Below are positions 25,976 to 64,000 of a stretch of DNA of 64,000 bases, in pieces. Both the position numbers and the translations under genes were made by a program. The stretch is taken from contig CAZERF010000001.1 in NCBI GenBank assembly GCA_964515375.1, forward strand, positions 115,243-179,242, in the 5' to 3' direction. Numbering within the stretch: position 1 is the first letter of the stretch; each line of letters starts with the position of its first letter. Origin of the DNA: an uncultured Candidatus Saccharibacteria bacterium. GTDB lineage: Bacteria; Patescibacteriota; Minisyncoccia; Phycocordibacterales; UBA6899. The notes under the pieces are model-generated. The model did no database searches, was not told the origin of the DNA, and saw only the letters and a program-made list of their open reading frames with translations.

Positions 25976-26017
25976 GGCTGTTACCGCTAATTAATATGCT
26001 ATAATTGAGGTCCGCTC

Positions 26018-26461
26018 ATGCTAACAGAAACGTTCAAAAAAATCAAGGAATTTCTCGTTTCCACGGGTGACCTTCCCAAGGATATCTTTTTGGCTCTCCT
26101 GGTTGTTTTTGTGGGTTTTGGAGGATTTTTGATCGGTCGGATCAGCGTTGTTCTCGATGGTACACAAGGCGGGCTCAGGATCACTGAAAAGGAAGTGCGG
26201 TCCTCCGTGGTGGGTGTGGGGCAGGGGAGTGTCCTGGGGGCAGTGACGGCTTCGTCGGAGAGTTTGACGATTGGCACGAAGGAAGTCGTACCAGCGCTCA
26301 AAACAGGAGTCTATGTTGCGTCACGAAACGGGACAGTCTTCCATTTGCCGACATGCTCGGGGGCAAAACGGATCTCGGAAGCCAACAAGATATGGTTTGC
26401 GACAAAAGAAGAAGCACTTGCGAAAGGATATCGCCCCGCTGCGAATTGCAAGGGGTTGTAG
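26018..26461 (+). CDS. Hypothetical membrane-anchored protein with a C-terminal Ada-Zn-binding-like motif
   Basis: One TM helix (IFLALLVVFVGFGGFLI). The C-terminus is VFHLPTCSGAKRISEANKIWFATKEEALAKGYRPAANC, which fits the Ada N-domain-like pattern hPxC...N..F....EA...GYRP..C. Confidence 0.5.
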   Translation: MLTETFKKIKEFLVSTGDLPKDIFLALLVVFVGFGGFLIGRISVVLDGTQGGLRITEKEVRSSVVGVGQGSVLGAVTASSESLTIGTKEVVPALKTGVYVASRNGTVFHLPTCSGAKRISEANKIWFATKEEALAKGYRPAANCKGL

Positions 26462-26610
26462 GAGGGGGGGTAAGATCGTGCAAGAAGTGAGACTGCGAAA
26501 AGAGGGGTTAGGTTATAAACAAGGGGTCGCCAAAAATAAATTTTCTGGTATACTCCTTCTTGTATCTGTTTGGGAGTTTGTATCTGGTAAACATAATTTT
26601 CGGGCTATCG

Positions 26611-26645
26611 GATCGTGGTTGGGACTACATGCCATATTGGAGAGT
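26611..26645 (+). repeat. Degenerate copy of the 5' half (acceptor/D-arm/anticodon stem) of the downstream tRNA-Pro
   Basis: CGGGCTATCGGATcGTGGTtgggaCTACATGCc nearly matches tRNA positions 1-33. The sequence then diverges and lacks a matching 3' acceptor strand. Confidence 0.45.
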
Positions 26646-26695
26646 GCATGCACCCTGTTGAGCGACCACAACTTCGATGATAAAAAAGATAAGAT

Positions 26696-26766
26696 CGGGC
26701 TATCGGATAGTGGTAGTCTACATGCATGGGGTGCATGCGGCGGCAGTTCGATTCTGCCTAGCCCGA
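26696..26766 (+). tRNA. tRNA-Pro (anticodon GGG), 71 nt, CCA not encoded
   Basis: Hand-folded cloverleaf. Acceptor CGGGCTA/TAGCCCG (7 bp). D-stem GGAT/GTCT with loop AGTGGTA. Anticodon stem CATGC/GCATG with loop AtGGGGt (U33, G37). Variable loop CGGC. T-stem GGCAG/CTGCC with loop TTCGATT. Discriminator A. Confidence 0.75.
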
Positions 26767-26802
26767 CAAAAGTTCAGTCAGTAGTTTACTTCACAAAAAT
26801 GT

Positions 26803-26866
26803 CCCCATGCATGGGGGTGTCTATATTCATTACCGGGACGCCAGTTCGATTCTGTCTAGCCCGAAG
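26803..26866 (+). repeat. Degenerate copy of the 3' portion (anticodon-like hairpin, T-arm, 3' acceptor strand) of tRNA-Pro
   Basis: CCCCATGCATGGGG palindrome, then ...CCAGTTCGATTCTGtCTAGCCCGA. That stretch matches the tRNA T-loop and 3' acceptor strand with one or two changes. No 5' acceptor partner lies upstream. Confidence 0.5.
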
Positions 26867-26958
26867 CATTGGTTGTAAAAAGCGGAAAAGCAGCAAAATG
26901 CCATTTTACTGCTTCTTTGCTGAAATATTGTGCGACGTAATAGTGAGACATCGATGCT

Positions 26959-26988
26959 TTGACGGAACTTTTCTGTTCGTGGTATAAT
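26959..26988 (+). promoter_or_regulatory. Strong sigma70-like promoter for the PEBP gene
   Basis: TTGACG (26959-26964), an 18-nt spacer, then TATAAT (26983-26988). The ATG at 27023 follows a GAGTGAGG Shine-Dalgarno-like stretch. Confidence 0.55.
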
Positions 26989-27022
26989 TAAAGAGTGAGG
27001 TGAACTCGGGGCAAGCCGGTTC

Positions 27023-27544
27023 ATGTGCTCCGCGGGGATCCTTGCGATCACCATGAAGGAACATGTTACTCAAGACGCGACCACTCTTTTTGCTTTGACC
27101 AGTCCCGCATGGGGAGACGGTGGTTTTGTTCCTTCCGAATATACCTGTGACGGATTCGGCGAAAGCCCCGAACTCTTGATCTCGAATACCCCCGAAGGAA
27201 CTTCTTCTCTTGTTCTCATCATGCACGACCCAGACGTGCCTCGTGCGATACGTCCAGACGGCAATTTTGACCACTGGGTCCTCTATGATATCGATCCGAA
27301 GACGGTAATCATCCCAAGGAATACGTCGGTTGGTACTGAAGGACTGAATAGTGTGTGCAAGAAGGGTTATGTCGGACCATGTCCGCCGAACGGTGAACAT
27401 CGCTACATTTTCGATCTCTACGCACTCGATAGGAGATTGGATCTTCCTCCGCGTGCGACGCGTCGTGAAGTTGAATGCGCAATGAAATCCGTAACGGTAC
27501 TTGGCGCGGCAACACTTTTGGGGCGATATCGAAGAGGAGGGTGA
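27023..27544 (+). CDS. PEBP-family protein (YbhB/YbcL-like phosphatidylethanolamine-binding protein)
   Basis: Conserved LVLIMHDPDVPR...DHWVLYDID...GYVGPCPPNGEHRYIFDLYAL. Confidence 0.85.
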   Translation: MCSAGILAITMKEHVTQDATTLFALTSPAWGDGGFVPSEYTCDGFGESPELLISNTPEGTSSLVLIMHDPDVPRAIRPDGNFDHWVLYDIDPKTVIIPRNTSVGTEGLNSVCKKGYVGPCPPNGEHRYIFDLYALDRRLDLPPRATRREVECAMKSVTVLGAATLLGRYRRGG

Positions 27545-27938
27545 GAGTGTTTTTTTTGCCGTTTTCTGCGGTTCTTTTCCGTGACTCAATACGTCGCACA
27601 ATATATCTTTTACGACATAATACGAAAGAAGAAATGGCCTTGTGTGGCCGTAGTTATTTCTTTTTCCAAAATCGGCTTTTTTAGATTTTTCTTGTCTTGC
27701 ATTCTTTTTTCATCCACCATTCTCCTTATCTATTTTCTTGCTCGAATGTCTGTCTTCTTGATTCGATACCGTCTCGACTCGCTTCTCCTCATTGGGCATT
27801 TGATGTGATCAAAAAATATTTTCACATTTTGTTATTGCAAAGAAGATACCCGGAGAGACTCCCCTGTTGTGTCGCACAATACAGAGGCGACGCAGTCGAA
27901 AAAAGAAAGATGGAATCGAGTGGGGTTTGAGAGTGAGA

Positions 27939-28112
27939 TTACTCCGTGTGTTCGGCCGGAGTACTTGTACTTGAGTCGTGCTGAGTAGGTATCCCACGCG
28001 CACGGAGCCAGTCGGGAAAACCGCTTTCGTCGACGATCTTGCGGACATCGATATTGAAGTAATACGCCAGTGCGGCGAAGAGAATGAATGTTGCGATAAT
28101 GCGAAAGACCAT
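27939..28112 (-). CDS. Possible small membrane protein, 57 aa, below the ORF-track length cutoff
   Basis: Read by hand: MVFRIIATFILFAALAYYFNIDVRKIVDESGFPDWLRARGIPTQHDSSTSTPAEHTE*. It is a single TM helix located 49 nt downstream of the M23 peptidase gene on the same strand. Confidence 0.25.
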   Translation of the reverse strand: MVFRIIATFILFAALAYYFNIDVRKIVDESGFPDWLRARGIPTQHDSSTSTPAEHTE

Positions 28113-28161
28113 GTTCTTTGTTCTTTTATTTAATCTGCACTTAGGTGTCGTTTCTTTTCAT

Positions 28162-55123: not shown

Positions 55124-57007
55124 CTATTTGACGAGGACTGCCTTGATACGGCGGATGCCTTGCGCGACCGCCTCTTCTTTTTGAATGACAAACCGACCGA
55201 GCTCACTCGTGTTCATTACATGGGGACCTCCACAGAACTCGATCGAGAATCGCTCATCAAATCGCGGATCTTCCGGAGTTGCATTTTTGGGACCAACCGA
55301 GTAAACCGAAACACGTTCGGGATATTTTGCGCCAAATTCATGTTCCGCGCCCAGCGTTTCGGCCTCCTCGCGAGACATTTCGGTGCGAAGAACAGGAAGC
55401 GCCTCGGTGATCTTTTCGTTCACAATACGCTCAACCTCCTTCTTTTGTTCATCCGTCATCTTTTGCGGGTAGGCAAAGTCGATACGCAAACGCTCGGAAG
55501 TAATGTTCGATCCGCGTTGATGCACCTCGGGACCAAGCACGATCTGAAGCGCGCGAAGCAAGAGATGGTGTGCCGTGTGGAGCCGCACAGTCTCGGGTGA
55601 ATGGTCAGCAAGACCTCCTTTAAACTTTTGTTCAGAACCTGACCGTGAAAGGTCTTGGTGTTTTTTGAGTTCTTCGGTGAAAAGTTGCGTGAAGTGTACG
55701 GAGACATCTTCGGGGATACTTTTGCCGCCGTGCTCGATCCGCAGACGGTTGATCTCCTCAAAGCTCATCTCTACAGGGAAACCGTGTGTTTGATAGAGGT
55801 CAAAAAGGGTCTTGGCGTCCAAGGAAAATTCTTTCTTTTCCCCCTCAAAATGCTCGAACAATTTTTCGATCTCGCGTATTCCACTTTCAAGTGTTTTGGC
55901 AAATCGCGTCTCTTCTTCCGCGATCACTTCCTTGATACGCGCGAGGTCGTTCGTAATGTTCTCATAAACACCATTGTACTTCTCCGCAAACAGATCGAGG
56001 ATCGGTGCAAAACCCGAAGAGAGTCCGATCGCGCGTGCATAGCGTACCGCACGACGAAGGAGGCGGCGGAGGATATACCCCTGATCGGTGTTCGACGGTG
56101 CAACTCCGTCACCGATCAAGAACATCGCGGTGCGAAGATGGTCGGCAATGATACGCGCCGAGCGTTCCTCGTAGGTGGTCGCATCGCGCTTGAGGTGTCC
56201 CATGACATCGGCAAAGAGGTCGGTCGCGAAGATATTGTTCTTCCCCTGCACGACCATGACCACGCGTTCAAGTCCGCTTCCGGTGTCGACGTTCTGTTTG
56301 TCGAGTTTGCCAACGACCTTGCCGTCTTTCTTCAAGTATTCCATGAAGACATCGTTCCAGATCTCAACGACCTCCTGACGATCGTCTGCGGCCATATATT
56401 CCTCTTTGGTCATTCCTTCGGTCAGCTTTCCTGTTACGTCGTAGAACATTTCAGAGTCCGGACCACACGGTCCATTGTCGCCCGGGCTCCACCAGTTGGG
56501 CTCCTTGCCGCTTGGAGTTGCGGTCATGAAGTAGATGCGTTCTCCCTTCACTCCAGCTTTTTCAAACAATTCTTTCCATATCGCGTAGGATATTTCGTCC
56601 TTCGGGGCATCGACATTGCCGCCAAAGACGGTGACATAAAGGCGACTTGGGTCGAGACCAAGTCCTTCACCCTTCGAGGTCAAAAATTCAAAACTCCACG
56701 TGATCGCGTCTTTCTTGAAGTAATCCCCGAGCGACCAATTGCCGAGCATTTCGAAGAATGTCGCGTGAGTATTGTCGCCAATCTCTTCAATGTCCACCGT
56801 GCGGACACATTTCTGGGAATCGGCAAGTCGTGTTCCTTCGGGGTGCGGTTCCCCCAAAAGGTACGGAACCAAAGGTTGCATTCCTGCGGTATTGAAGAGT
56901 ACTGACGGATCATTGAGTGGCACCAAGGAGGCGCTCGGAATGATCGCATGTCCACGCGCGGCAAAAAATCGTAGAAAACGTGTTCGAATTTCGTTTGAGG
57001 TCAACAT
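55124..57007 (-). CDS. alaS: Alanyl-tRNA synthetase, short form lacking the C-terminal C-Ala domain
   Basis: N-terminal catalytic domain (FLRFFAARGH..., FNTAGMQ), a tRNA-recognition domain, and an editing domain with HHLLLRAL...FCGGPHV. The ORF ends after the editing domain at 627 aa. Confidence 0.9.
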   Translation of the reverse strand: MLTSNEIRTRFLRFFAARGHAIIPSASLVPLNDPSVLFNTAGMQPLVPYLLGEPHPEGTRLADSQKCVRTVDIEEIGDNTHATFFEMLGNWSLGDYFKKDAITWSFEFLTSKGEGLGLDPSRLYVTVFGGNVDAPKDEISYAIWKELFEKAGVKGERIYFMTATPSGKEPNWWSPGDNGPCGPDSEMFYDVTGKLTEGMTKEEYMAADDRQEVVEIWNDVFMEYLKKDGKVVGKLDKQNVDTGSGLERVVMVVQGKNNIFATDLFADVMGHLKRDATTYEERSARIIADHLRTAMFLIGDGVAPSNTDQGYILRRLLRRAVRYARAIGLSSGFAPILDLFAEKYNGVYENITNDLARIKEVIAEEETRFAKTLESGIREIEKLFEHFEGEKKEFSLDAKTLFDLYQTHGFPVEMSFEEINRLRIEHGGKSIPEDVSVHFTQLFTEELKKHQDLSRSGSEQKFKGGLADHSPETVRLHTAHHLLLRALQIVLGPEVHQRGSNITSERLRIDFAYPQKMTDEQKKEVERIVNEKITEALPVLRTEMSREEAETLGAEHEFGAKYPERVSVYSVGPKNATPEDPRFDERFSIEFCGGPHVMNTSELGRFVIQKEEAVAQGIRRIKAVLVK

Positions 57008-57054
57008 ATCAGGGCATTATAATGATTCAGTAAAATTACGCAAAGAGATATCGG

Positions 57055-57600
57055 TCACCCTCGCAAGGTCTTGACCTCGTTCCCGTCAAATTCAATGAGC
57101 GTAGAGGGCGGTCCTTCCAACGTTCCGCCGTCAACATAAAATTCCGCATCGCTACCAAAATACGCGCGAGCTTCCTCGACGCTCGTCGCAGGAGGTCGAC
57201 CTTCAGGGTTGGCCGACGGAGCAACGAGAGGACCGGCAGATGAGATGAGTTCGCGAAGCTGCTCATTATCGGGGAAACGAAAGGCGATCGTATCGTGCCC
57301 ACGGGAAAGATATTCAAACTGATCGTCGATGATCGGAAGGACGACAGAATAAGGTCCCGGCCAATATGTACGCAACCGTGCTTCGAGTGCTTGTGAAAGT
57401 TCTACCCCAAAAGACTCGAGGGTACTTATGTCATTAATAAGCACAATAAGCGGTTTTGTGGGATTGCGCTGCTTGAGAAAATAGATCCGCTCAACCGCAT
57501 CGGGATCCAGCGCAGAACCGATCAGTCCGTAGAGCGTGTCAGTCGGGAACACGCCAACCGCGCCTTGTGTGATCATTGTCGCGATCTCTTCGTTATCCAT
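57055..57600 (-). CDS. tsaC: L-threonylcarbamoyladenylate synthase (TsaC/YrdC family)
   Basis: YrdC fold motifs (...VFPTDTLYGLIG..., KQRNPTKPLIVLI). The track ORF extends to 57759 across pyrH, and the Met at 57600 is the likely start. Confidence 0.8.
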   Translation of the reverse strand: MDNEEIATMITQGAVGVFPTDTLYGLIGSALDPDAVERIYFLKQRNPTKPLIVLINDISTLESFGVELSQALEARLRTYWPGPYSVVLPIIDDQFEYLSRGHDTIAFRFPDNEQLRELISSAGPLVAPSANPEGRPPATSVEEARAYFGSDAEFYVDGGTLEGPPSTLIEFDGNEVKTLRG

Positions 57601-57613
57601 AGAAGTATGAAGG

Positions 57614-58315
57614 TTATGGGGTAATGATCGAACCGACTTCCGGCAATAGTGCCCGAGAGATATCATTGACGCTAACGATCTTGATCGGAAGCCCATGCTC
57701 TTTGGCGAGCGCAATCGCCGACTGATCGGCAACCTTAAGGTCTTTTTCAAGCACTTCACCGGCGCTTATTGTCCGAATAAGCGTAGCGGATGTGTCAGTG
57801 TCGGGATCTGAAGTATAAAGACCATCAACACCGTTCTTTGCCATGATGACCATCTCGGCGTCGATCTCAAGCGCACGCTGAACAGAAGTTGAATCTGTTG
57901 TGAAATATGGCGCACCAAGCCCCGCGGCAAAGATGATCACTCTCCCCTTCTCGAGATGTCGTTCTGCGCGCTTGGGAATATAGGCCTCGCAGATCTGTGC
58001 CATGGTGATCGCCGACGAGACCCGCGTCTCGATGCCCTTGCTCTCAAAGTAATCGCGGAGCACAAGTGCATTCTGTACGGTTGCGAGCATGCCAATATAG
58101 TCAGCGGTGGGACGAAGGATCGCAAGCTCTCCCGTCAATTCATGTCCGCGAAAAAGATTTCCTCCTCCCACAACAAGCGCAACCTGATGACCTTTCTTGA
58201 GGAGCTGCTTGATCTCACTCGCGATCATTTCAAGCGTTGGTTCGTTGTACTTGCGTCCATTCGCAAGCTCGTCACCCCGAAGGCTCTCCCCGGAAAGTTT
58301 GATGAGTAGTTTCAT
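57614..58315 (-). CDS. pyrH: UMP kinase
   Basis: MKLLIKLSGESL...VALVVGGGNLFRG is the amino-acid-kinase-fold signature of PyrH. Confidence 0.95.
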   Translation of the reverse strand: MKLLIKLSGESLRGDELANGRKYNEPTLEMIASEIKQLLKKGHQVALVVGGGNLFRGHELTGELAILRPTADYIGMLATVQNALVLRDYFESKGIETRVSSAITMAQICEAYIPKRAERHLEKGRVIIFAAGLGAPYFTTDSTSVQRALEIDAEMVIMAKNGVDGLYTSDPDTDTSATLIRTISAGEVLEKDLKVADQSAIALAKEHGLPIKIVSVNDISRALLPEVGSIITP

Positions 58316-58345
58316 GGAGAAGAGTATATCACGGAAGCTTCGATG

Positions 58346-59815
58346 TCAGAAAGAAGAAAGACCGGTTGCCTCCATGATGCGATAAACCGAGAATTTCCAA
58401 AACGTACGGTCTTTATAAGTCTCATAATCGGTCGTAAAGACACCGCCTTCATTGGCCCACAAGCGTTCGAAGTGCTCATGTGCATCCGTCCACGCAGTGA
58501 ATGTATTATCGCCTTCGACAAGAACGTTTGCTTCGAGATTGAACCCACCAATGTTGCGCCGAGTGAAGTTCGCGGATCCAAGCATGAGAAAAGTGCTGGA
58601 CGCGGTTTTTCCGAGAAGCATCTTTCCGTGACACTGTTCCCCATTCGTCGCGCACCAGCGAACGGAAATATCGCCGCCGGTTCGCTTCACGAGTTCTTTC
58701 GCGACGGGACGATTAGGAATGCCGTTCTTCTCATGACCAAAAGCGTCTTTGTTTGGATCGAGAATAAGACGCACCACAACACCACGCTTTGTCGCGTCGA
58801 CGAGCGCCCGGATCACCTTGCGATCAGAGAGATAAAACATCTCGATGTCGAGTGTGTCTTCATTCTTCATATTCTCGATCAAGGCAACTGCACTGTCTCG
58901 GATCTCTCGTTCTTTCAAGAACGAAGCCTGAAGAGTCCCCGTCGCATGTTCCAAAATATCCTTACCAAAATTCGGGAGCCCTGCGCCCGACAATGCTGCG
59001 ATCGCAGTTTCACTCTGCAAGGCATCTTGCCATATCCCCGCGTCAACCTTGAGCGCAACATTGCTGTGCGCACTTGAGCCATCATGAGGATTGGACGAGG
59101 TTACGATCGTGGTCATCCGTCGTCCGGTCTCTTTCCCTTGAACAACGATCGGCTCGTCGGCAACGATCAATTTGCGATGATTGGCCTTGAAATTAAGGAG
59201 CGTGAACCAACTGCGCAGGGTCACACTCTCTCCCCTATACTGAAAGGGGTGCGGAAGTCGTCCTCCAGTTGTGTCGTTTTCCCAAAGCGCGATGAATGGC
59301 CTCCAAAACGCGCTCCATGTTAAATTACTGTCACGAAGTTGCCGTAGGTCGGTCGTCACAACAAAGATCCCTGCAGTACGAAACTCTTCAAACAAAGGAG
59401 AAAGTGCGCCACCATAGACAGTATTGATCGGGTCCGTGATCACGGCGACAGGAACATGAGGGGAGTCTGCGCGCTTCTCAAGCAGAGCATCCCCGAACTC
59501 TCGTGAGAGCGCGCGTGTTGTTTCAGGTTTTGCCCCCTGAAAATCATTGAAAAGAAACATATCGAGCACGATCGCGTGTTCCGCCTTTGTGATCGTTTGA
59601 AATATCGCATCCCAGATCTCTTGCCGCACCACTCGGGTGCCAGTTGTGTTAATAAATGTTTCGTCGGCGAGAAAGTGCACTTCTCCGTCCGAAACACGAT
59701 GGATCGTCGGAGTGAAAGTAAGCGACTCAGGAATCGGTCTCGACCATTGGTAGGCAAAGACGAACACATAGACAACAAGTATGAATCGGAATATCTTTCC
59801 AGAAAGAAATTTCAT
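58346..59815 (-). CDS. Phospholipase D-family protein (cardiolipin synthase-like), two HKD motifs
   Basis: N-terminal TM helix. First HKD is NHRKLIVAD and second is CHGKMLL...GSANFTRRN. Confidence 0.8.
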   Translation of the reverse strand: MKFLSGKIFRFILVVYVFVFAYQWSRPIPESLTFTPTIHRVSDGEVHFLADETFINTTGTRVVRQEIWDAIFQTITKAEHAIVLDMFLFNDFQGAKPETTRALSREFGDALLEKRADSPHVPVAVITDPINTVYGGALSPLFEEFRTAGIFVVTTDLRQLRDSNLTWSAFWRPFIALWENDTTGGRLPHPFQYRGESVTLRSWFTLLNFKANHRKLIVADEPIVVQGKETGRRMTTIVTSSNPHDGSSAHSNVALKVDAGIWQDALQSETAIAALSGAGLPNFGKDILEHATGTLQASFLKEREIRDSAVALIENMKNEDTLDIEMFYLSDRKVIRALVDATKRGVVVRLILDPNKDAFGHEKNGIPNRPVAKELVKRTGGDISVRWCATNGEQCHGKMLLGKTASSTFLMLGSANFTRRNIGGFNLEANVLVEGDNTFTAWTDAHEHFERLWANEGGVFTTDYETYKDRTFWKFSVYRIMEATGLSSF

Positions 59816-59824
59816 AGTTTTAAA

Positions 59825-60691
59825 CTAAAGGCGCAAGGTTTGTAGATGTGAACGGAACGCCGGGCCGATATCAGGGCGTGCGAGTGCGTATTGCAACATT
59901 GCCTTAAGATAGTTGAGCGGATCCCCTGTTGTAAGCCACTGTCCGTCGGTCACCTCTTCGACCATAAAAGTGCCACCCTTTGCGACATATGCACTGATCG
60001 CGTCGGTGATCCAAAGCTCGTTCCCCTTGCCGAGTTTTGTTTTCTTGAGAATCTCAACGATTTCGGGGGTAAGGATCATGCGTCCAAACTGAGCAAGTTG
60101 TGAGGGCGCGGTGCCGACCGCAGGTTTTTCAACCACGCTCTCCATTTGACGAGTCCCTCGTTTTAGCTTGACGATACCATAGCGATCAACTTCTTTCTTG
60201 GGGACCTTCTGAACTCCGATGACCGGTGCTCCGTTCGCGTTGTAATTTTCGATGAGTTTTTTGGTGAAAGGTGTTTTGGAAAGCACGAGATCATCACCCC
60301 ACGCGAACACAAAGGGTTGATCGTGGAGCACATGAGAAGCAGAGAGAACCGGTGTGCCGTTTCCGTAGGGACCCTTTTGTCGAATGTAGACAAAATTCGC
60401 CATCTTTGAGATATCTTTGATGCTCTTCAATATCTGATGCTTCCCTGCTTTTGCAAGAGAATGCTCAAGCTCAAAAGAGCGATCAAAATGATCTTCGAGT
60501 GTCTTTTTGTCCCATTTGGTCACCAAGATGATATTCTCGATTCCTGATCCGACCATTTCTTCAACAACGTACTGAATGATTGGCTTATCGACAATGGGGA
60601 GCATCTCTTTCGGTTGAACCTTTGTTGCCGGCAAAAAACGCGTCCCACTTCCCGCAACCGCGATCACCGCAGTCTTAACCTTCTTGGTCAT
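59825..60691 (-). CDS. galU: UTP--glucose-1-phosphate uridylyltransferase
   Basis: AVIAVAGSGTRFLPATKVQPKEMLPIVDKP is the GalU N-terminal nucleotide-binding motif. I take the start as MTKKVKT. Confidence 0.9.
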   Translation of the reverse strand: MTKKVKTAVIAVAGSGTRFLPATKVQPKEMLPIVDKPIIQYVVEEMVGSGIENIILVTKWDKKTLEDHFDRSFELEHSLAKAGKHQILKSIKDISKMANFVYIRQKGPYGNGTPVLSASHVLHDQPFVFAWGDDLVLSKTPFTKKLIENYNANGAPVIGVQKVPKKEVDRYGIVKLKRGTRQMESVVEKPAVGTAPSQLAQFGRMILTPEIVEILKKTKLGKGNELWITDAISAYVAKGGTFMVEEVTDGQWLTTGDPLNYLKAMLQYALARPDIGPAFRSHLQTLRL

Positions 60692-61190
60692 GATGATGAG
60701 TCGACCGTCGAGCACTCTTGATGAAATCCTCTTCGAGGTCGGTTTGAGCTATTTTGATAAAACGCTCTTCGATATACCACATCGCTTCGAATATAAAGAG
60801 TGTGAGAAAAGTGACATATGCCGCGATGGTGTAGAGTCCGTATCCGCACGCCACGCCAACACCCGCTGCAACCCACAGACCCGCAGCTGTAGTGAGTCCT
60901 GTCAGCTCGTTGCGTTGCACAAAGATCACTCCTGCTCCCAAGAAGCCGATACCCACAACGATCTGTGATGCGACACGGAGCGGGTCAAAGACCGCCCCCG
61001 GGGAAAATTGAGCCGAAACAACGCCGGCAATGACAACAAAAAGACTTGCACCGAGCGCCACAAGTGCGTAGGTGCGCATGCCCGCTCGCTTTCCGACACG
61101 CGAACGTTCCGCCCCGATCAAAAGACCGAGTAATGTTGCAACAGAAAGTCGAATGAGGATCGTGAGATCCGAGACGGCGAATATTTCCAT
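60675..61190 (-). CDS. MgtC/SapB-family membrane protein
   Basis: ...LIRLSVATLLGLLIGAERSRVGKRAGMRTYALVALGASLF... is the MgtC signature. The track ORF extends to 61229. Confidence 0.75.
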   Translation of the reverse strand: MEIFAVSDLTILIRLSVATLLGLLIGAERSRVGKRAGMRTYALVALGASLFVVIAGVVSAQFSPGAVFDPLRVASQIVVGIGFLGAGVIFVQRNELTGLTTAAGLWVAAGVGVACGYGLYTIAAYVTFLTLFIFEAMWYIEERFIKIAQTDLEEDFIKSARRSTHHHDQEG

Positions 61191-61229
61191 TCGTCCATTA
61201 TACACCGCGCGGAAGACAGAACAATCCAC

Positions 61230-62096
61230 TTATCCCGAGTTCCTGAAGGAGAGATCGAGGTTGCATAGCGCATTTCCCTCTTCGATCACCGCATTGATCT
61301 GTTCCTTGCTCATTCCGATCTGTTCGAGAACAGCAGGCGTTGCGACAACGTCATGACAAAGAACAACACCTTCGGAAAGCAAGGCGCTTTTTTGTTTGTC
61401 TGAAAGTGTCGTGAGACAGGTTACCGGATGTGTTTGCGTGCGCTGTACAAGATCTTGCAATGTGTGCCCTTTGGGATAATTCCACCCCGTGAGCGCCAGC
61501 CCCGCACAACGGCCATATTGGATGGCCTGTGAGGTGAAGCTGGTGTTAGTGATGAGCCATGGTCGCGTATGTGTTTTCTCTTCTTTGTGATCAGTGTCAT
61601 AGCGTTTCACGATATCAAGAAAACGTGCGTGCACATACAGTGCGACCTTCACGTCGGACTTTACCTCCACTGAATTATGAAACTTTGCCTCGACAAGAAT
61701 ACGTTCGTCGGGTTTTGTCGCAAAGACATCTACTTCATGCTCGACACAGGCACCCCGCACCATAACCCCGACCTCTGTCGTATATCCTTGCGCTTCAAGG
61801 ATCTTTGCGACAAAGCGCTCGAAGGGAAACCCTGACGGACCGAGCTGCATGATGACTTTCTTCAAGCTGTATTCTGCCGCGACCGGACGATTGTAATTCT
61901 TGAGCAATGCAAAGGCATGCTCGTAGATATCACTCGTGCGCATGCCGTCACGCACATCCTTTTCGATATGCTGGACGATCTCCCGGACAAGTTCTTCGCT
62001 CGCGCGAGCGGCGCGGAGTGAACGCTCAAGTTTTCTTGTGTCCCATGGTTCACGCTCGCCCGACGCCTTGATGATAGTGATCTGGTCGAGAGTCAT
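61230..62096 (-). CDS. ATP-cone domain fused to an Mrr-like (PD-(D/E)xK) restriction endonuclease domain
   Basis: The N-terminal ~90 aa resemble an ATP-cone (IKASGEREPWDTRKLERSLRAA...). The C-terminal region FERFVAKILEAQGYTTEV...VDVFATKPDERILVEAKFHN...ITNTSFTSQA fits the Mrr_cat pattern, with D...E.K catalytic residues. Confidence 0.65.
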   Translation of the reverse strand: MTLDQITIIKASGEREPWDTRKLERSLRAARASEELVREIVQHIEKDVRDGMRTSDIYEHAFALLKNYNRPVAAEYSLKKVIMQLGPSGFPFERFVAKILEAQGYTTEVGVMVRGACVEHEVDVFATKPDERILVEAKFHNSVEVKSDVKVALYVHARFLDIVKRYDTDHKEEKTHTRPWLITNTSFTSQAIQYGRCAGLALTGWNYPKGHTLQDLVQRTQTHPVTCLTTLSDKQKSALLSEGVVLCHDVVATPAVLEQIGMSKEQINAVIEEGNALCNLDLSFRNSG

Positions 62097-62097
62097 A

Positions 62098-62565
62098 TTA
62101 GCGAGTTGGGGCAGAGTTGATGATATTTCCCGAGGGATCTTGCCAGTCGGTGCGTCGCACAGACGTCATGAGCTCATCTCCGTCAAGAAAGAGGCGGATG
62201 ACAGAAACATCTTGAGGTGCTTCAACAATGGTTGAAAAAGGGTATTGCGTAGGGTACCGCGCGCAGGAAGAAGGATTGCGGTCAAAATTGTCACGCGAGG
62301 TAAGGAAAAGATCAATGCGGGCATTTGTCGCATCGTAGTCGGCGACCGTTGTCACCCCATAGCACGAATGTGCAAGCTTCACGGTTCCACTGAGACGATG
62401 GATCCCATCTTGAAATCCGTCCACGATTTTGATCGGCGAAGGATTCAAGCTGCGCGAAAGTGATGTCTCTACCGGAGCAGGAGAAGTACGCGTTGTGCTA
62501 TAGAATAAGAACCCAAATACGCCGGTCGCAAGAAGAAGTGAAACAATGATAATGAGGCGGAGCAT
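62098..62565 (-). CDS. Hypothetical exported protein, 155 aa, N-terminal signal/TM anchor
   Basis: Clean ORF immediately downstream of the ATP-cone/Mrr gene, with a 1-nt gap. Two Cys are present and no motif is recognised. Confidence 0.4.
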   Translation of the reverse strand: MLRLIIIVSLLLATGVFGFLFYSTTRTSPAPVETSLSRSLNPSPIKIVDGFQDGIHRLSGTVKLAHSCYGVTTVADYDATNARIDLFLTSRDNFDRNPSSCARYPTQYPFSTIVEAPQDVSVIRLFLDGDELMTSVRRTDWQDPSGNIINSAPTR

Positions 62566-62589
62566 GATAGTAATGATCCTATTTCGCTA

Positions 62590-63072
62590 TTATTTTACAC
62601 CGACAAGCTCTACTTCAAAAACAAGCGTCGCGTTTGGAGGAATAACCCCAGGAAATCCATCCGCTCCATATCCAAGTTCGGGAGGGATGGTCAATTTGCG
62701 CTTCTCTCCGACCTTCATCCCAAAGACGCCGATATCCCAACCTCGGATCACTTGCCCCGCGCCAAGTGTAAAGGTGAAAGGCTCACCACGTGGGATACTC
62801 GAATCAAAGACAGTCCCATCAGAAAGAGTGCCAGTGTAGTGAACGGAGACATTCTTTCCGTTCGCGGCGACATCACCCTCTCCTTTTTGCAATGTCTCGA
62901 TGTGTAATTGTGCAGTATTCTCGTTTGGCATAGTGCTTGTTGTTGATGAATAATTATTCTCAGTTGCCTCTTCAGTGGCCGGTGACCCTGTAAGAAGGAT
63001 GAGTGCGAACAACGCGACCGCCGCGAGTGCGAGGGCCACGGTGCCGTAGGTCAACTGTTCGCGTTCTTTCAT
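62590..63072 (-). CDS. FKBP-type peptidyl-prolyl cis-trans isomerase, membrane-anchored/secreted
   Basis: N-terminal TM helix. The FKBP domain carries ...[16 protein letters not shown]...[36 protein letters not shown]...LVFEVELV. Confidence 0.85.
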
Positions 63073-63109
63073 TCCTCCATCATACTCGATTGTGCGCGAT
63101 TATACAAAA

Positions 63110-64000
63110 TCATGACAACAAGACATGTTCCGAGACGACTCCCCCGCCAAGACATTCCTCACCGCGATACCAAACGGCGGATTGACCGGAGGCGATCCCT
63201 TCGACCTCTTCGGAAAAAGATACCTGTAGCTCTGAAGGGCTGGTCGCAGGGGTGATCGTCGCCGAATAGAGTGTATCCCGATACCGAAGACGGAGCATGA
63301 GAGAATCGTCATGCGATGGTATGTTTATAAAGTGAGCATCTTCGAGTGTCACCGTGCGCGTTTTTCCTGTGCGCAAGTCGGGGTCACGATGGCTCACGGT
63401 GATCGTATTGGCAGCAAGGTCTTTTCTTAAAACAAAATACGGAAGTTCGTTTCCGGTACGTTTGACGGTCGAGAATCCGTGACGTTGCCCGATCGTATAG
63501 AGCATCGCACCATCGTGTTCTCCGATCACATGTCCTTCTGTATCGAGCACCGAACCTTTTTTTGTTGCGAGATAGTGCTTCAAGAAATCGGCCATATTTA
63601 CTTGCCCCATAAAGCAAAGCCCCTGACTATCCTTCTTTTCCGCATTGGGGAGTCCGAACTCGCGTGCAAGCGCACGAACCTCGCTCTTCAGAAACCCCCC
63701 AACAGGAAAAAGCGCGTGGGAAAGTTGCTCTTGTGTGAGTGTCCACAAAAAATAGGACTGGTCCTTGTTCGGATCCTTCCCCGCAAAGAGATGCATCGCT
63801 TCATCGTCCCCACGAAGCACGCGCGCGTAGTGACCCGTGGCGATCATATCGGCGCCGTGACTGCGGGCAAATTCAATGAACGCGCCGAATTTTACCTCCT
63901 TGTTGCACATCACATCAGGGTTGGGAACTCTCCCCCGCGCGTATTCGCGGATCATATAATCCACAACTCCCTCCTTGTATTCTTTTTCAAGATCGAGTGT
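63110..64000 (-). CDS. mnmA: tRNA-specific 2-thiouridylase MnmA, 5' end beyond the window
   Basis: ...GRVPNPDVMCNKEVKFGAFIEFA...GADMIATGHYARV... is the central MnmA region. The frame stays open upstream of the internal Met at 63964, out to the window edge. Confidence 0.85.
   Translation of the reverse strand, partial: TLDLEKEYKEGVVDYMIREYARGRVPNPDVMCNKEVKFGAFIEFARSHGADMIATGHYARVLRGDDEAMHLFAGKDPNKDQSYFLWTLTQEQLSHALFPVGGFLKSEVRALAREFGLPNAEKKDSQGLCFMGQVNMADFLKHYLATKKGSVLDTEGHVIGEHDGAMLYTIGQRHGFSTVKRTGNELPYFVLRKDLAANTITVSHRDPDLRTGKTRTVTLEDAHFINIPSHDDSLMLRLRYRDTLYSATITPATSPSELQVSFSEEVEGIASGQSAVWYRGEECLGGGVVSEHVLLS

What the first reader, a model, noticed from the sequence alone, without database searches (positions are those of the whole stretch)
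61230..62565. ATP-cone domain fused to an Mrr-type PD-(D/E)xK nuclease, followed by an exported protein
The 288-aa ORF joins an N-terminal ATP-cone-like domain to an Mrr_cat-like restriction-endonuclease fold. ATP-cone domains are nucleotide-sensing regulatory modules best known from NrdR and ribonucleotide reductases. The nuclease fold here has candidate catalytic residues D...E.K in VDVFATKPDERILVEAK. No methyltransferase or specificity subunit is adjacent. That suggests a nucleotide-regulated, modification-dependent or stress-activated nuclease, possibly a stand-alone defence or abortive-infection-type effector. A 155-aa exported protein follows with a 1-nt gap and may be functionally linked.
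Basis: partly seen in the sequence, partly recalled or inferred. Interest (0 to 1): 0.5.

Follow-up and report, generated by a model that had tools for sequence, protein, structure and literature searches.

The report
ATP-sensing nuclease, conserved housekeeping gene

Summary
The 288-aa ORF (61230-62096, minus strand) is real. It has three domains, not two: an ATP-cone (aa 7-78), an Mrr_cat PD-(D/E)xK nuclease core (89-196) and an AF1548-like, helix-hairpin-helix-type C-terminal domain (224-276). All three score above Pfam's thresholds.

- **Conservation:** E93, D123, E136 and K138 are invariant in 391/391 homologues. The cone residues K10, G13, K22 and T54 are kept in at least 95%.
- **Distribution:** the family is large (at least 595 species: Patescibacteria, Bacteroidota, Chlamydiota) and uniformly about 280 aa.
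- **Against defence:** it is absent from 50,697 phage records and from IMG/VR, present on 2 of 72,556 plasmids, and matches no PADLOC defence family. It sits in a syntenic housekeeping block and diverges as slowly as MnmA or AlaRS.
- **Partner genes elsewhere:** outside Patescibacteria the gene overlaps a beta-CASP ribonuclease-like gene, usually followed by an AMP-phosphorylase-like enzyme and a PRPP synthetase.

The best reading is an adenine-nucleotide-gated nuclease for nucleic-acid turnover or salvage. The 155-aa membrane-anchored protein lies upstream, evolves fast and is restricted to a sub-clade.

The parts
61230..62096 (-). Gene for the 288-aa ATP-cone / PD-(D/E)xK / HhH-like nuclease (AF1548 family)
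   Evidence: ORF listing; Pfam; PDB 1y88 E=4.6e-35; 4825 homologues; AF2 pLDDT 93.2, pTM 0.88.
61863..62078 (-). ATP-cone domain (aa 7-78), the predicted adenine-nucleotide sensor
61818..61844 (-). Linker motif LGPSGFPFE (aa 85-93), ending in the first-helix acidic residue E93
   Evidence: G86, G89, F92 and E93 invariant in 391/391, P87 in 388/391. This is the most conserved stretch of the family and was the search pattern that recovered 595 genomic relatives.
61509..61832 (-). PD-(D/E)xK nuclease core (aa 89-196, Mrr_cat). Catalytic D123 = 61728-61730, E136 = 61689-61691, K138 = 61683-61685
61269..61427 (-). AF1548-like C-terminal domain (aa 224-276), helix-hairpin-helix-like; probable non-specific nucleic-acid binding
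62098..62565 (-). Upstream 155-aa gene: N-terminal TM helix plus a small all-beta domain with two invariant Cys. Possibly translationally coupled (TAA-t-ATG). Functional link doubtful
   Evidence: Sequence. No Pfam, NCBIfam or PADLOC family. Only 3 close homologues. Syntenic relatives 20-36% identical. Low-confidence model, pLDDT 59.9.
60675..61190 (-). Downstream MgtC-family membrane protein gene (context; recurrent neighbour)
   Evidence: PF02308 E=2e-34. tblastn places the conserved 171-aa form at 61190-60678. MgtC lies within 2 genes downstream in 13 of 37 Patescibacteria-like loci, and an MgtC+DUF4010 gene lies near the nuclease in 5 of 40 Bacteroidota-like loci.

Best explanation
The gene encodes a cytoplasmic, chromosomally inherited endonuclease of the AF1548 family whose activity is gated by the adenine-nucleotide pool.

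Shown:
- An N-terminal ATP-cone of the NrdR/RNR type, a complete PD-(D/E)xK active site (E93, D123, E136-x-K138) and a C-terminal HhH-like nucleic-acid-binding domain are fused in one 288-aa chain.
- All three parts are under strong purifying selection in thousands of homologues.
- The gene occupies a fixed place in a housekeeping gene array in Patescibacteria.

Inferred:
- As in RNR and NrdR, ATP versus dATP (or ATP depletion) at the cone changes the oligomeric or conformational state. That switch turns cleavage by the nuclease core on or off.
- The physiological role is controlled breakdown of nucleic acid to supply nucleotides or ribose-phosphate when nucleotide or energy status demands it.
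- In Bacteroidota and Chlamydiota this would work in an operon with a beta-CASP ribonuclease-like enzyme, an AMP-phosphorylase-like enzyme and a PRPP synthetase.
- In nucleotide-auxotrophic Patescibacteria it would work as a stand-alone core gene.
- It is not a restriction or defence enzyme.
For: - **Selection:** catalytic residues 391/391; cone K10/G13/K22/T54 at least 95%.
- **Uniformity:** 451 clusters at 50% identity with E<1e-30. The 150 best listed are nearly all about 280 aa and matched over almost their whole length.
- **Vertical, housekeeping behaviour:** the order MnmA-(FKBP-p150)-nuclease-MgtC-GalU-PLD-PyrH-Sua5-AlaRS is kept. MnmA lies upstream in about 30 of 37 Patescibacteria-like loci. 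Nuclease identity of 65-72% (near clade) and 45-51% (far) tracks MnmA at 47-60% and AlaRS at 55-58%. GC content shows no anomaly.
- **Not mobile or defence-linked:**
- **Salvage link:** a beta-CASP gene lies within 2 genes downstream in 23 of 40 Bacteroidota-like loci. It overlaps the nuclease gene by 1-10 nt in Chlamydiia and Bacteroidota contigs. The four-gene operon nuclease / beta-CASP / thymidine-phosphorylase-family / ribose-phosphate pyrophosphokinase is on the Pontibacter and Criblamydia plasmids, beside phosphoketolase, glycogen phosphorylase, acetate kinase and 2-hydroxyacid dehydrogenase. The phosphorylase scores 506.5 bits on the AMP phosphorylase model (cut-off 535) and above cut-off on the archaeal-type models. 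A tandem Usp gene is coupled upstream in 18 of 40 loci.
- **Expression of the partner triad:** the MBL/PRS/TP triad bll3115-3117 is induced in microoxia in Bradyrhizobium (PMC6515984).
- **Patescibacteria neighbours:** some loci carry a YfbR-like 5'-deoxynucleotidase, a family-4 UDG and a PDDEXK_1 nuclease next to the gene.
Against: - No biochemical data exist for any member, as far as the held literature shows. Nucleotide binding, the direction of regulation and the substrate (DNA or RNA) are all unmeasured.
- The window itself contains no beta-CASP, phosphorylase, PRPP-synthetase or Usp homologue. The salvage role is therefore carried over from other phyla by guilt by association.
- Gene order in compact CPR genomes is conserved for many unrelated genes, so the MnmA and MgtC adjacency may carry no functional meaning.
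- The HhH domain suggests DNA, whereas the beta-CASP partner is closest to RNA-acting enzymes. This is unresolved.
- The archaeal AF1548 lacks the cone, so the nuclease can function without it.
Confidence: 0.5

Rival explanations
1. A DNA repair or recombination endonuclease that cleaves branched or damaged DNA, in the manner of Hjc, NucS or XPF/Mus81. The ATP-cone would tie its activity to the dATP/ATP ratio, that is, to replication status.
Against: The Pfam Hjc match is below threshold (14.3 bits against GA 21.1). The most consistent partners outside Patescibacteria are catabolic or salvage enzymes and stress proteins, not repair genes. No RecA, Ruv or ligase genes are adjacent in any locus examined.
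Confidence: 0.25
2. One reading: a stand-alone anti-phage or abortive-infection effector. This would be either a type IV modification-dependent nuclease, or a nuclease released when infection depletes ATP.
For: Mrr_cat fold. Structural neighbours include the modification-dependent enzymes AspBHI and MspJI and the ligand-activated defence nucleases Can2, Card1, NucC and Cap4. There is a weak PADLOC fold-level hit to the ZorD nuclease domain, E=3e-4. No cognate methyltransferase is present. The Criblamydia plasmid copy lies 7 kb from an AbiE toxin-antitoxin pair.
Against: No family-level PADLOC model matches. There is no modification-reader domain. No match in GenBank phages or IMG/VR, and only 2 of 72,556 plasmids. 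The chromosomal position among housekeeping genes is conserved. The divergence rate equals that of MnmA and AlaRS. Length and architecture are uniform across 451 clusters. None of this is typical of defence genes.
Confidence: 0.1
3. A two-gene unit in which the upstream 155-aa membrane-anchored protein and the nuclease act together, for example by tethering the nuclease at a DNA-uptake site.
For: A 1-nt spacer (TAA t ATG) with no visible Shine-Dalgarno sequence suggests translational coupling. The pair is kept in the near clade, including Lloydbacteria.
Against: The protein is beside the nuclease in only 5 of 37 Patescibacteria-like loci and in no Bacteroidota-like locus. It is 22-36% identical where the nuclease is 65-72%. 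Its folded domain is predicted to lie outside the membrane while the nuclease has no signal sequence. Tight spacing is the rule throughout this compact genome.
Confidence: 0.05
4. A catalytically silent, NrdR-like nucleotide-sensing DNA-binding regulator that uses the nuclease fold only to bind DNA.
For: The ATP-cone is most similar to NrdR cones (weak NCBIfam NrdR hit at E=0.028). An HhH DNA-binding domain is present.
Against: All four catalytic residues are invariant in 391/391 sequences, which is not expected for a dead nuclease. There is no Zn-ribbon, and the NrdR model scores 14.5 bits against a cut-off of 124.65.
Confidence: 0.05

Closest known systems
AF1548 of Archaeoglobus fulgidus (PDB 1Y88; Pfam PF04471 + PF22357; COG1787)
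   Different: AF1548 has no ATP-cone; the alignment starts at chain residue 22. AF1548 is itself functionally uncharacterised (a structural-genomics entry), so homology gives the fold but not the function.
ATP-cones of NrdR and ribonucleotide reductases (PF03477)
   Different: The output domain here is a nuclease, not a reductase or a Zn-ribbon DNA binder. The NrdR model scores far below its cut-off. Ligand preference and the direction of the switch are unknown.
Mrr type IV restriction endonuclease
   Same: The catalytic domain is assigned to Mrr_cat.
   Different: No Mrr_N winged-helix modification reader is present; the N-terminus is an ATP-cone. The gene shows no mobile or defence context. 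It has housekeeping-like conservation.
Ligand-gated PD-(D/E)xK effectors of CRISPR type III / CBASS (Can2, Card1, NucC, Cap4)
   Different: The sensor is an ATP-cone, which reads the bulk ATP/dATP pool, and not a CARF or SAVED domain, which reads a dedicated second messenger. No CRISPR or CBASS genes are nearby. It is not a member of those families.
XPF/Mus81/Hef structure-specific endonucleases
   Same: A restriction-endonuclease-fold nuclease followed by a C-terminal HhH-type domain (established knowledge; HhH-like hits).
   Different: No detectable sequence relationship: no ERCC4 Pfam hit. The N-terminal module is different.

Membership tests
AF1548-like nuclease family (PF04471 + PF22357, PDB 1Y88) | Significant similarity to AF1548 across the nuclease core and the C-terminal domain | tested here: met
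AF1548-like nuclease family (PF04471 + PF22357, PDB 1Y88) | Intact PD-(D/E)xK motif (E...D...ExK) | tested here: met
   E93, D123, E136 and K138 invariant in 391/391.
ATP-cone domain proteins (PF03477) | Domain match above the curated threshold, and the cone fold | tested here: met
ATP-cone domain proteins (PF03477) | Binding of ATP/dATP and a nucleotide-dependent change of state | not testable with these tools
   Only conservation of the K10/G13/K22/T54 signature could be shown. That these residues contact the nucleotide in RNR/NrdR is recalled from the literature and was not tested here.
Mrr type IV restriction enzymes | Mrr_cat catalytic domain | tested here: met
   PF04471, 32 bits against GA 21.
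Mrr type IV restriction enzymes | N-terminal winged-helix (Mrr_N) DNA/modification-recognition domain | tested here: not met
   The N-terminus is an ATP-cone and there is no Mrr_N hit.
Mrr type IV restriction enzymes | Cleavage dependent on methylated DNA | not testable with these tools
   Needs biochemistry.
Classical R-M system (types I-III) | Adjacent cognate methyltransferase and/or specificity subunit | tested here: not met
   The neighbours from 55124 to 64000 are all housekeeping genes. Syntenic loci extend this by more than 6 kb on each side without a methyltransferase.
Known anti-phage defence systems (PADLOC-DB v2) | Match to a defence-protein model, plus a defence-island or mobile-element context | tested here: not met
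   Only fold-level hits, E>=3e-4. 0 phage records, 0 IMG/VR contigs and 2 of 72,556 plasmids. Conserved housekeeping synteny.
NrdR transcriptional repressor | N-terminal Zn-ribbon followed by an ATP-cone; match to TIGR00244 | tested here: not met
   14.5 bits against a cut-off of 124.65. Only the cone segment aligns and no Zn-ribbon is present.
Archaeal Holliday junction resolvase Hjc (PF01870) | Match above the family threshold | tested here: not met
Nuclease / beta-CASP / phosphorylase / PRPP-synthetase operon (seen here in Bacteroidota and Chlamydiota) | Partner genes adjacent to the nuclease gene | tested here: not met
   tblastn of partner proteins against the 64-kb window finds none. None of the 37 Patescibacteria-like loci has them within +-6 kb. 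The rest of the genome could not be examined.

The most novel reading that the evidence does not exclude
The family is the gatekeeper of a previously undescribed nucleic-acid-to-PRPP recycling pathway controlled by adenylate status. When the ATP-cone reports a low or imbalanced (d)ATP pool, the endonuclease opens RNA or DNA. A beta-CASP exonuclease reduces it to NMPs. An AMP-phosphorylase-like enzyme releases base plus ribose-1,5-bisphosphate, and a PRPP-synthetase-like enzyme returns this to PRPP. In Patescibacteria, which depend on scavenged nucleotides, the stand-alone copy would be a core regulator of nucleotide supply from imported or self nucleic acid.
Probability: 0.3. Interest if true: 0.7.

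Novelty: new member of a known kind. Interest (0 to 1): 0.45.

Why it matters
ATP-cones are known as allosteric switches of dNTP synthesis (RNR, NrdR). A very widespread, strongly conserved fusion of that switch to a nuclease would extend allosteric ATP/dATP sensing from nucleotide synthesis to nucleic-acid degradation.

The family is a near-fixed chromosomal gene in the Patescibacteria examined, organisms whose nucleotide economy is poorly understood. In cultured Bacteroidota it is tied to a four-gene operon that suggests a bacterial counterpart of the archaeal NMP-degradation route.

The family already has a crystal structure for two of its three domains and has cultivable hosts (Flagellimonas, Arenibacter, Kaistella, Pontibacter), so the hypothesis can be tested directly. 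For annotation, the practical point is that the database name 'restriction endonuclease' for these proteins is probably misleading.

Tried and rejected
- **PADLOC** scan of the nuclease, the 155-aa protein and MgtC gave only weak fold-level hits.
- **Phage and viral searches** found nothing: tblastn against GenBank phages and a pattern scan of IMG/VR.
- **Structure of the 155-aa protein:** The 4-sequence alignment gave pLDDT 59.9, too poor for a fold search, so none was run.
- **Homologue search for the 155-aa protein** returned only 3 close relatives.
- **Literature searches** for AF1548, 1Y88, COG1787, 'ATP-cone'+Mrr/endonuclease/restriction endonuclease and 'ATP cone domain-containing protein' found no functional study. 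They turned up the GOS catalytic-residue prediction and the PD-(D/E)xK census that files 1y88 with Mrr_cat. A Prochlorococcus preprint mentions COG1787 only as a 'recB' label. I recall that Aravind, Wolf and Koonin (2000) described the ATP-cone as a mobile domain, but I could not check whether they listed this fusion.
- **Promoter/terminator scan** of 59500-64000 was not above shuffled expectation: 7 promoter-like sites against 3.6+-2.3. I drew no operon boundaries from it.
- **Rfam and tRNA scans** found nothing near the gene.
- **Family-specific HMMs** for the cone and nuclease parts found no second copy in the window.
- **Other readings considered and rejected:** NrdR-like regulator and Hjc resolvase membership.
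Full report
**1. The observation**

The region holds two adjacent minus-strand ORFs: 61230-62096 (288 aa, ATG start) and 62098-62565 (155 aa). The DNA reads ...cgc TAA t ATG act..., so the stop codon of the 155-aa ORF, one base, and the start codon of the 288-aa ORF follow each other directly. Because both genes are on the minus strand, the 155-aa gene is upstream of the nuclease gene. It does not come after it in the direction of transcription.

Pfam assigns three domains to the 288-aa protein, each above its gathering threshold:
- ATP-cone, aa 7-78: 33.2 bits against 25.8.
- Mrr_cat, aa 89-196: 32 bits against 21.
- AF1548-like_C, aa 224-276: 24.5 bits against 23.9.

GC content across 61-62.5 kb (0.51-0.53) does not differ from the flanks.

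**2. Structure and active site**

- A long list of PD-(D/E)xK nucleases: AspBHI 11.3, NucS 11.0, Can2 10.3, MspJI 9.8, FokI 9.8, NucC 8.7, Card1 8.2, Hjc 7.5.
- For the C-terminus, HhH modules of NusA, Pol X and RAD51 paralogues.

In an alignment of 391 distinct homologues, E93, D123, E136, K138, R158, D161, G86, G89, F92, G115 and P224 are invariant (391/391). The ATP-cone signature is also kept: K10 380, G13 380, K22 382 and T54 372 of 391, with most exceptions being N-terminally truncated gene calls. They correspond to the D38/E51/K53 predicted for AF1548 by Yooseph et al. (PMC1821046).

Both the sensor and the catalytic centre are therefore under strong purifying selection. A degenerate or non-catalytic protein is very unlikely.

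**3. The family**

- The word-indexed search found 4825 homologues. The best 120 are 61-96% identical and 270-308 aa long. The named ones are from Patescibacteria, Paceibacterota and Lloydbacteria and are called 'restriction endonuclease' or 'ATP-cone domain protein'.
- The exhaustive search of 50%-identity representatives found 1190 clusters (451 with E<1e-30). Among the 150 best listed, almost all are about 280 aa and matched over nearly their whole length.
These were Patescibacteria and many Bacteroidota, including cultured Maribacter, Muriicola, Salegentibacter, Flagellimonas, Arenibacter, Christiangramia, Kaistella, Pontibacter and Cyclobacterium.
- A second search seeded from a Criblamydia copy added Chlamydiia.
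- Public annotation already recognises the architecture. JGI, for example, names one member 'restriction endonuclease/ATP cone domain-containing protein/AF1548-like protein'.
- I found no functional study in the held literature. The PD-(D/E)xK census of Steczkiewicz et al. files 1y88/COG1787 in the Mrr_cat group and does not mention the ATP-cone (PMC3424549).

**4. Context in the window and in Patescibacteria**

The window is a run of housekeeping genes. Around the target these are MnmA, FKBP, the 155-aa protein, the nuclease, MgtC, GalU, a PLD-type enzyme, PyrH, Sua5/YrdC and AlaRS, all on the minus strand. This order is kept in relatives whose nuclease is 65-72% identical, including Ca. Lloydbacteria.

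I clustered the neighbours of 77 loci. In 37 Patescibacteria-like loci:
- MnmA, often as two tandem paralogues, is within two genes upstream in about 30.
- MgtC is downstream in 13.
- A PDDEXK_1 nuclease, a family-4 UDG and AlaRS are present in 12-16.
- A YfbR-like HD 5'-deoxynucleotidase is present in 5.
- The 155-aa protein is present in only 5.

Against syntenic orthologues, the nuclease is 65-72% identical in the near clade. The other genes there are MgtC 67-72%, GalU 74-80%, MnmA 50-60%, FKBP 45-70% and PLD 40-57%. In distant Patescibacteria the nuclease is 45-51% identical, against MnmA 47-52% and AlaRS 55-58%. The 155-aa protein is only 22-36% identical.

The nuclease therefore behaves like a vertically inherited core gene. 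Family-specific HMMs find a single copy in the window.

**5. Tests of the defence reading**

- PADLOC gives only fold-level similarity: the ZorD Mrr-like nuclease domain at E=3e-4, and a CARF-PDDEXK model at 0.02.
- There is no Mrr_N-type reader and no methyltransferase or specificity gene nearby.
- tblastn finds no match in 50,697 phage records, and the IMG/VR scan finds none.
- Only 2 of 72,556 plasmids carry the gene.
- The uniform architecture, slow evolution and fixed chromosomal position add to this.

Together these make a restriction or abortive-infection role unlikely, although an ATP-depletion-triggered suicide nuclease cannot be strictly excluded.

**6. An unexpected lead from other phyla**

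Both plasmid copies (a Pontibacter actiniarum megaplasmid and a Criblamydia sequanensis plasmid) sit in the same tightly packed operon. Its genes are:
- ATP-cone nuclease
- MBL-fold beta-CASP hydrolase
- thymidine-phosphorylase-family protein
- ribose-phosphate pyrophosphokinase

Flanking genes include phosphoketolase, glycogen phosphorylase, acetate kinase, 2-hydroxyacid dehydrogenase and P-type ATPases.

In 40 Bacteroidota-like chromosomal loci:
- The beta-CASP gene is within two genes downstream in 23.
- The phosphorylase and PRS genes are present in 13 and 11.
- A tandem universal stress protein gene lies directly upstream in 18, with gaps of -4 to +3 nt.
- Archaeal-type GAPDH, class I aldolase, 2-hydroxyacid dehydrogenase and MgtC+DUF4010 genes recur.

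In three further Chlamydiia and Bacteroidota contigs with otherwise unrelated neighbours, the nuclease gene overlaps the beta-CASP gene by 1-10 nt. The nuclease/beta-CASP pair is therefore the conserved core.

NCBIfam places the partners as follows:
- The beta-CASP protein is nearest to RNA-acting enzymes: type VII Cas14 at 405 bits and aCPSF1 at 299 bits, both below their cut-offs.
- The phosphorylase falls in the archaeal-type group. It is above cut-off for NF003338 and TIGR02645, and scores 506.5 bits against 535 for AMP phosphorylase.
- The PRS falls in subfamily NF005537.

In Bradyrhizobium diazoefficiens the MBL/PRS/TP triad (bll3115-3117) is induced at protein and transcript level in microoxia (PMC6515984). 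I could not check whether a nuclease homologue lies beside it there.

This window has none of these partners.

**7. Mechanism**

Shown: the three-domain fusion, the intact active site, the conserved cone signature, the housekeeping-like inheritance, and the association with nucleic-acid and nucleotide catabolic genes in other phyla.

Inferred from established ATP-cone behaviour in RNR and NrdR: ATP or dATP occupancy of the cone changes quaternary or conformational state and so switches the nuclease.

Inferred from the operon partners: the enzyme starts regulated nucleic-acid breakdown that feeds NMP phosphorolysis and PRPP formation when energy or nucleotide status requires it. For Patescibacteria, which are generally held to lack de novo nucleotide synthesis (my own knowledge, not tested here), a stand-alone nucleotide-gated nuclease would fit a salvage role.

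Open points are the substrate (the HhH domain argues for DNA, the beta-CASP partner for RNA), which ligand acts, and the direction of control.

The main rival is a repair or recombination endonuclease tuned by dATP/ATP. It is supported by the nuclease+HhH layout and by the UDG and PDDEXK_1 neighbours in Patescibacteria.

**8. The 155-aa protein**

It has an N-terminal hydrophobic helix (aa 2-25), a low-complexity linker and a small all-beta domain. D53, G54, H56, G60, C68, D78, C101 and P117 are invariant among 12 syntenic relatives. It matches no Pfam, NCBIfam or PADLOC family and has only three close homologues in the word-indexed search. The model is too poor (pLDDT 59.9) for a fold search.

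The one-base spacing permits translational coupling. However, the protein is confined to a sub-clade, evolves several times faster than the nuclease, and is predicted to face the outside of the membrane. A functional partnership is unlikely.

**9. Verdict**

The idea of a nucleotide-regulated nuclease is reasonable. The defence or modification-dependent reading and the link to the 155-aa protein are not supported.

This is a new member of a known, annotated but biochemically uncharacterised family. Its interest lies in its breadth and conservation, and in the newly noted operon that makes a (d)ATP-gated nucleic-acid recycling function testable.

Noticed in passing
L092:1972-6597; L093:9001-13608; L094:8001-10177; L095:8001-10198; L096:8001-10264: Outside Patescibacteria the nuclease gene is the first gene of a compact operon with a beta-CASP MBL hydrolase (overlapping by 1-10 nt), usually followed by an archaeal-type (AMP-phosphorylase-like) phosphorylase and a PRPP synthetase. 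The operon is often set among Usp, fermentation and P-type ATPase genes. The MBL/PRS/TP triad is microoxia-induced in Bradyrhizobium (PMC6515984).
   Followed up: partly
window 60675-61190 (-); Bacteroidota loci such as L068:2854-4131: An MgtC-family membrane protein recurs near the nuclease in two phyla: plain MgtC downstream in 13 of 37 Patescibacteria-like loci, and MgtC+DUF4010 in 5 of 40 Bacteroidota-like loci. From memory, MgtC is linked to ATP homeostasis in Salmonella, so the pairing with an ATP-cone protein may not be a coincidence.
   Followed up: partly
window 61509-61832 (-), protein residues C117, H120, C197 (also C227, C278): Cys117, His120 and Cys197 are each kept in 384 of 391 homologues, and the two Cys are also present in AF1548. 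They could form a structural metal site or a disulfide/redox switch in the nuclease core. I could not inspect coordinates.
   Followed up: no
Patescibacteria loci, e.g. L025, L028, L031, L044, L048, L081 (genes at -1 and -2 of the nuclease): Many Patescibacteria carry two tandem MnmA (tRNA 2-thiouridylase) paralogues directly upstream of the nuclease gene. The window has a single MnmA gene, cut by the window end at 63110-63964.
   Followed up: no
Flavobacteriaceae loci, e.g. L059:6887-7141: A small protein of about 84 aa that ends in CCGGH, with no Pfam or NCBIfam match, sits between the nuclease and the beta-CASP gene in 13 Bacteroidota-like loci.
   Followed up: partly
window 25990-28160: This stretch of about 2.1 kb contains tRNA-Pro(GGG) at 26696-26767. 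The only ORFs are overlapping ones with no Pfam match, and there is no Rfam family apart from the tRNA. That is unusual in such a compact genome.
   Followed up: partly
family members P0130 (335 aa), P0189 (403 aa), P0191, P0246, P0263: A few homologues carry an insertion after about residue 169, in the variable loop following the long helix of the nuclease core. It splits the match into two stretches.
   Followed up: no
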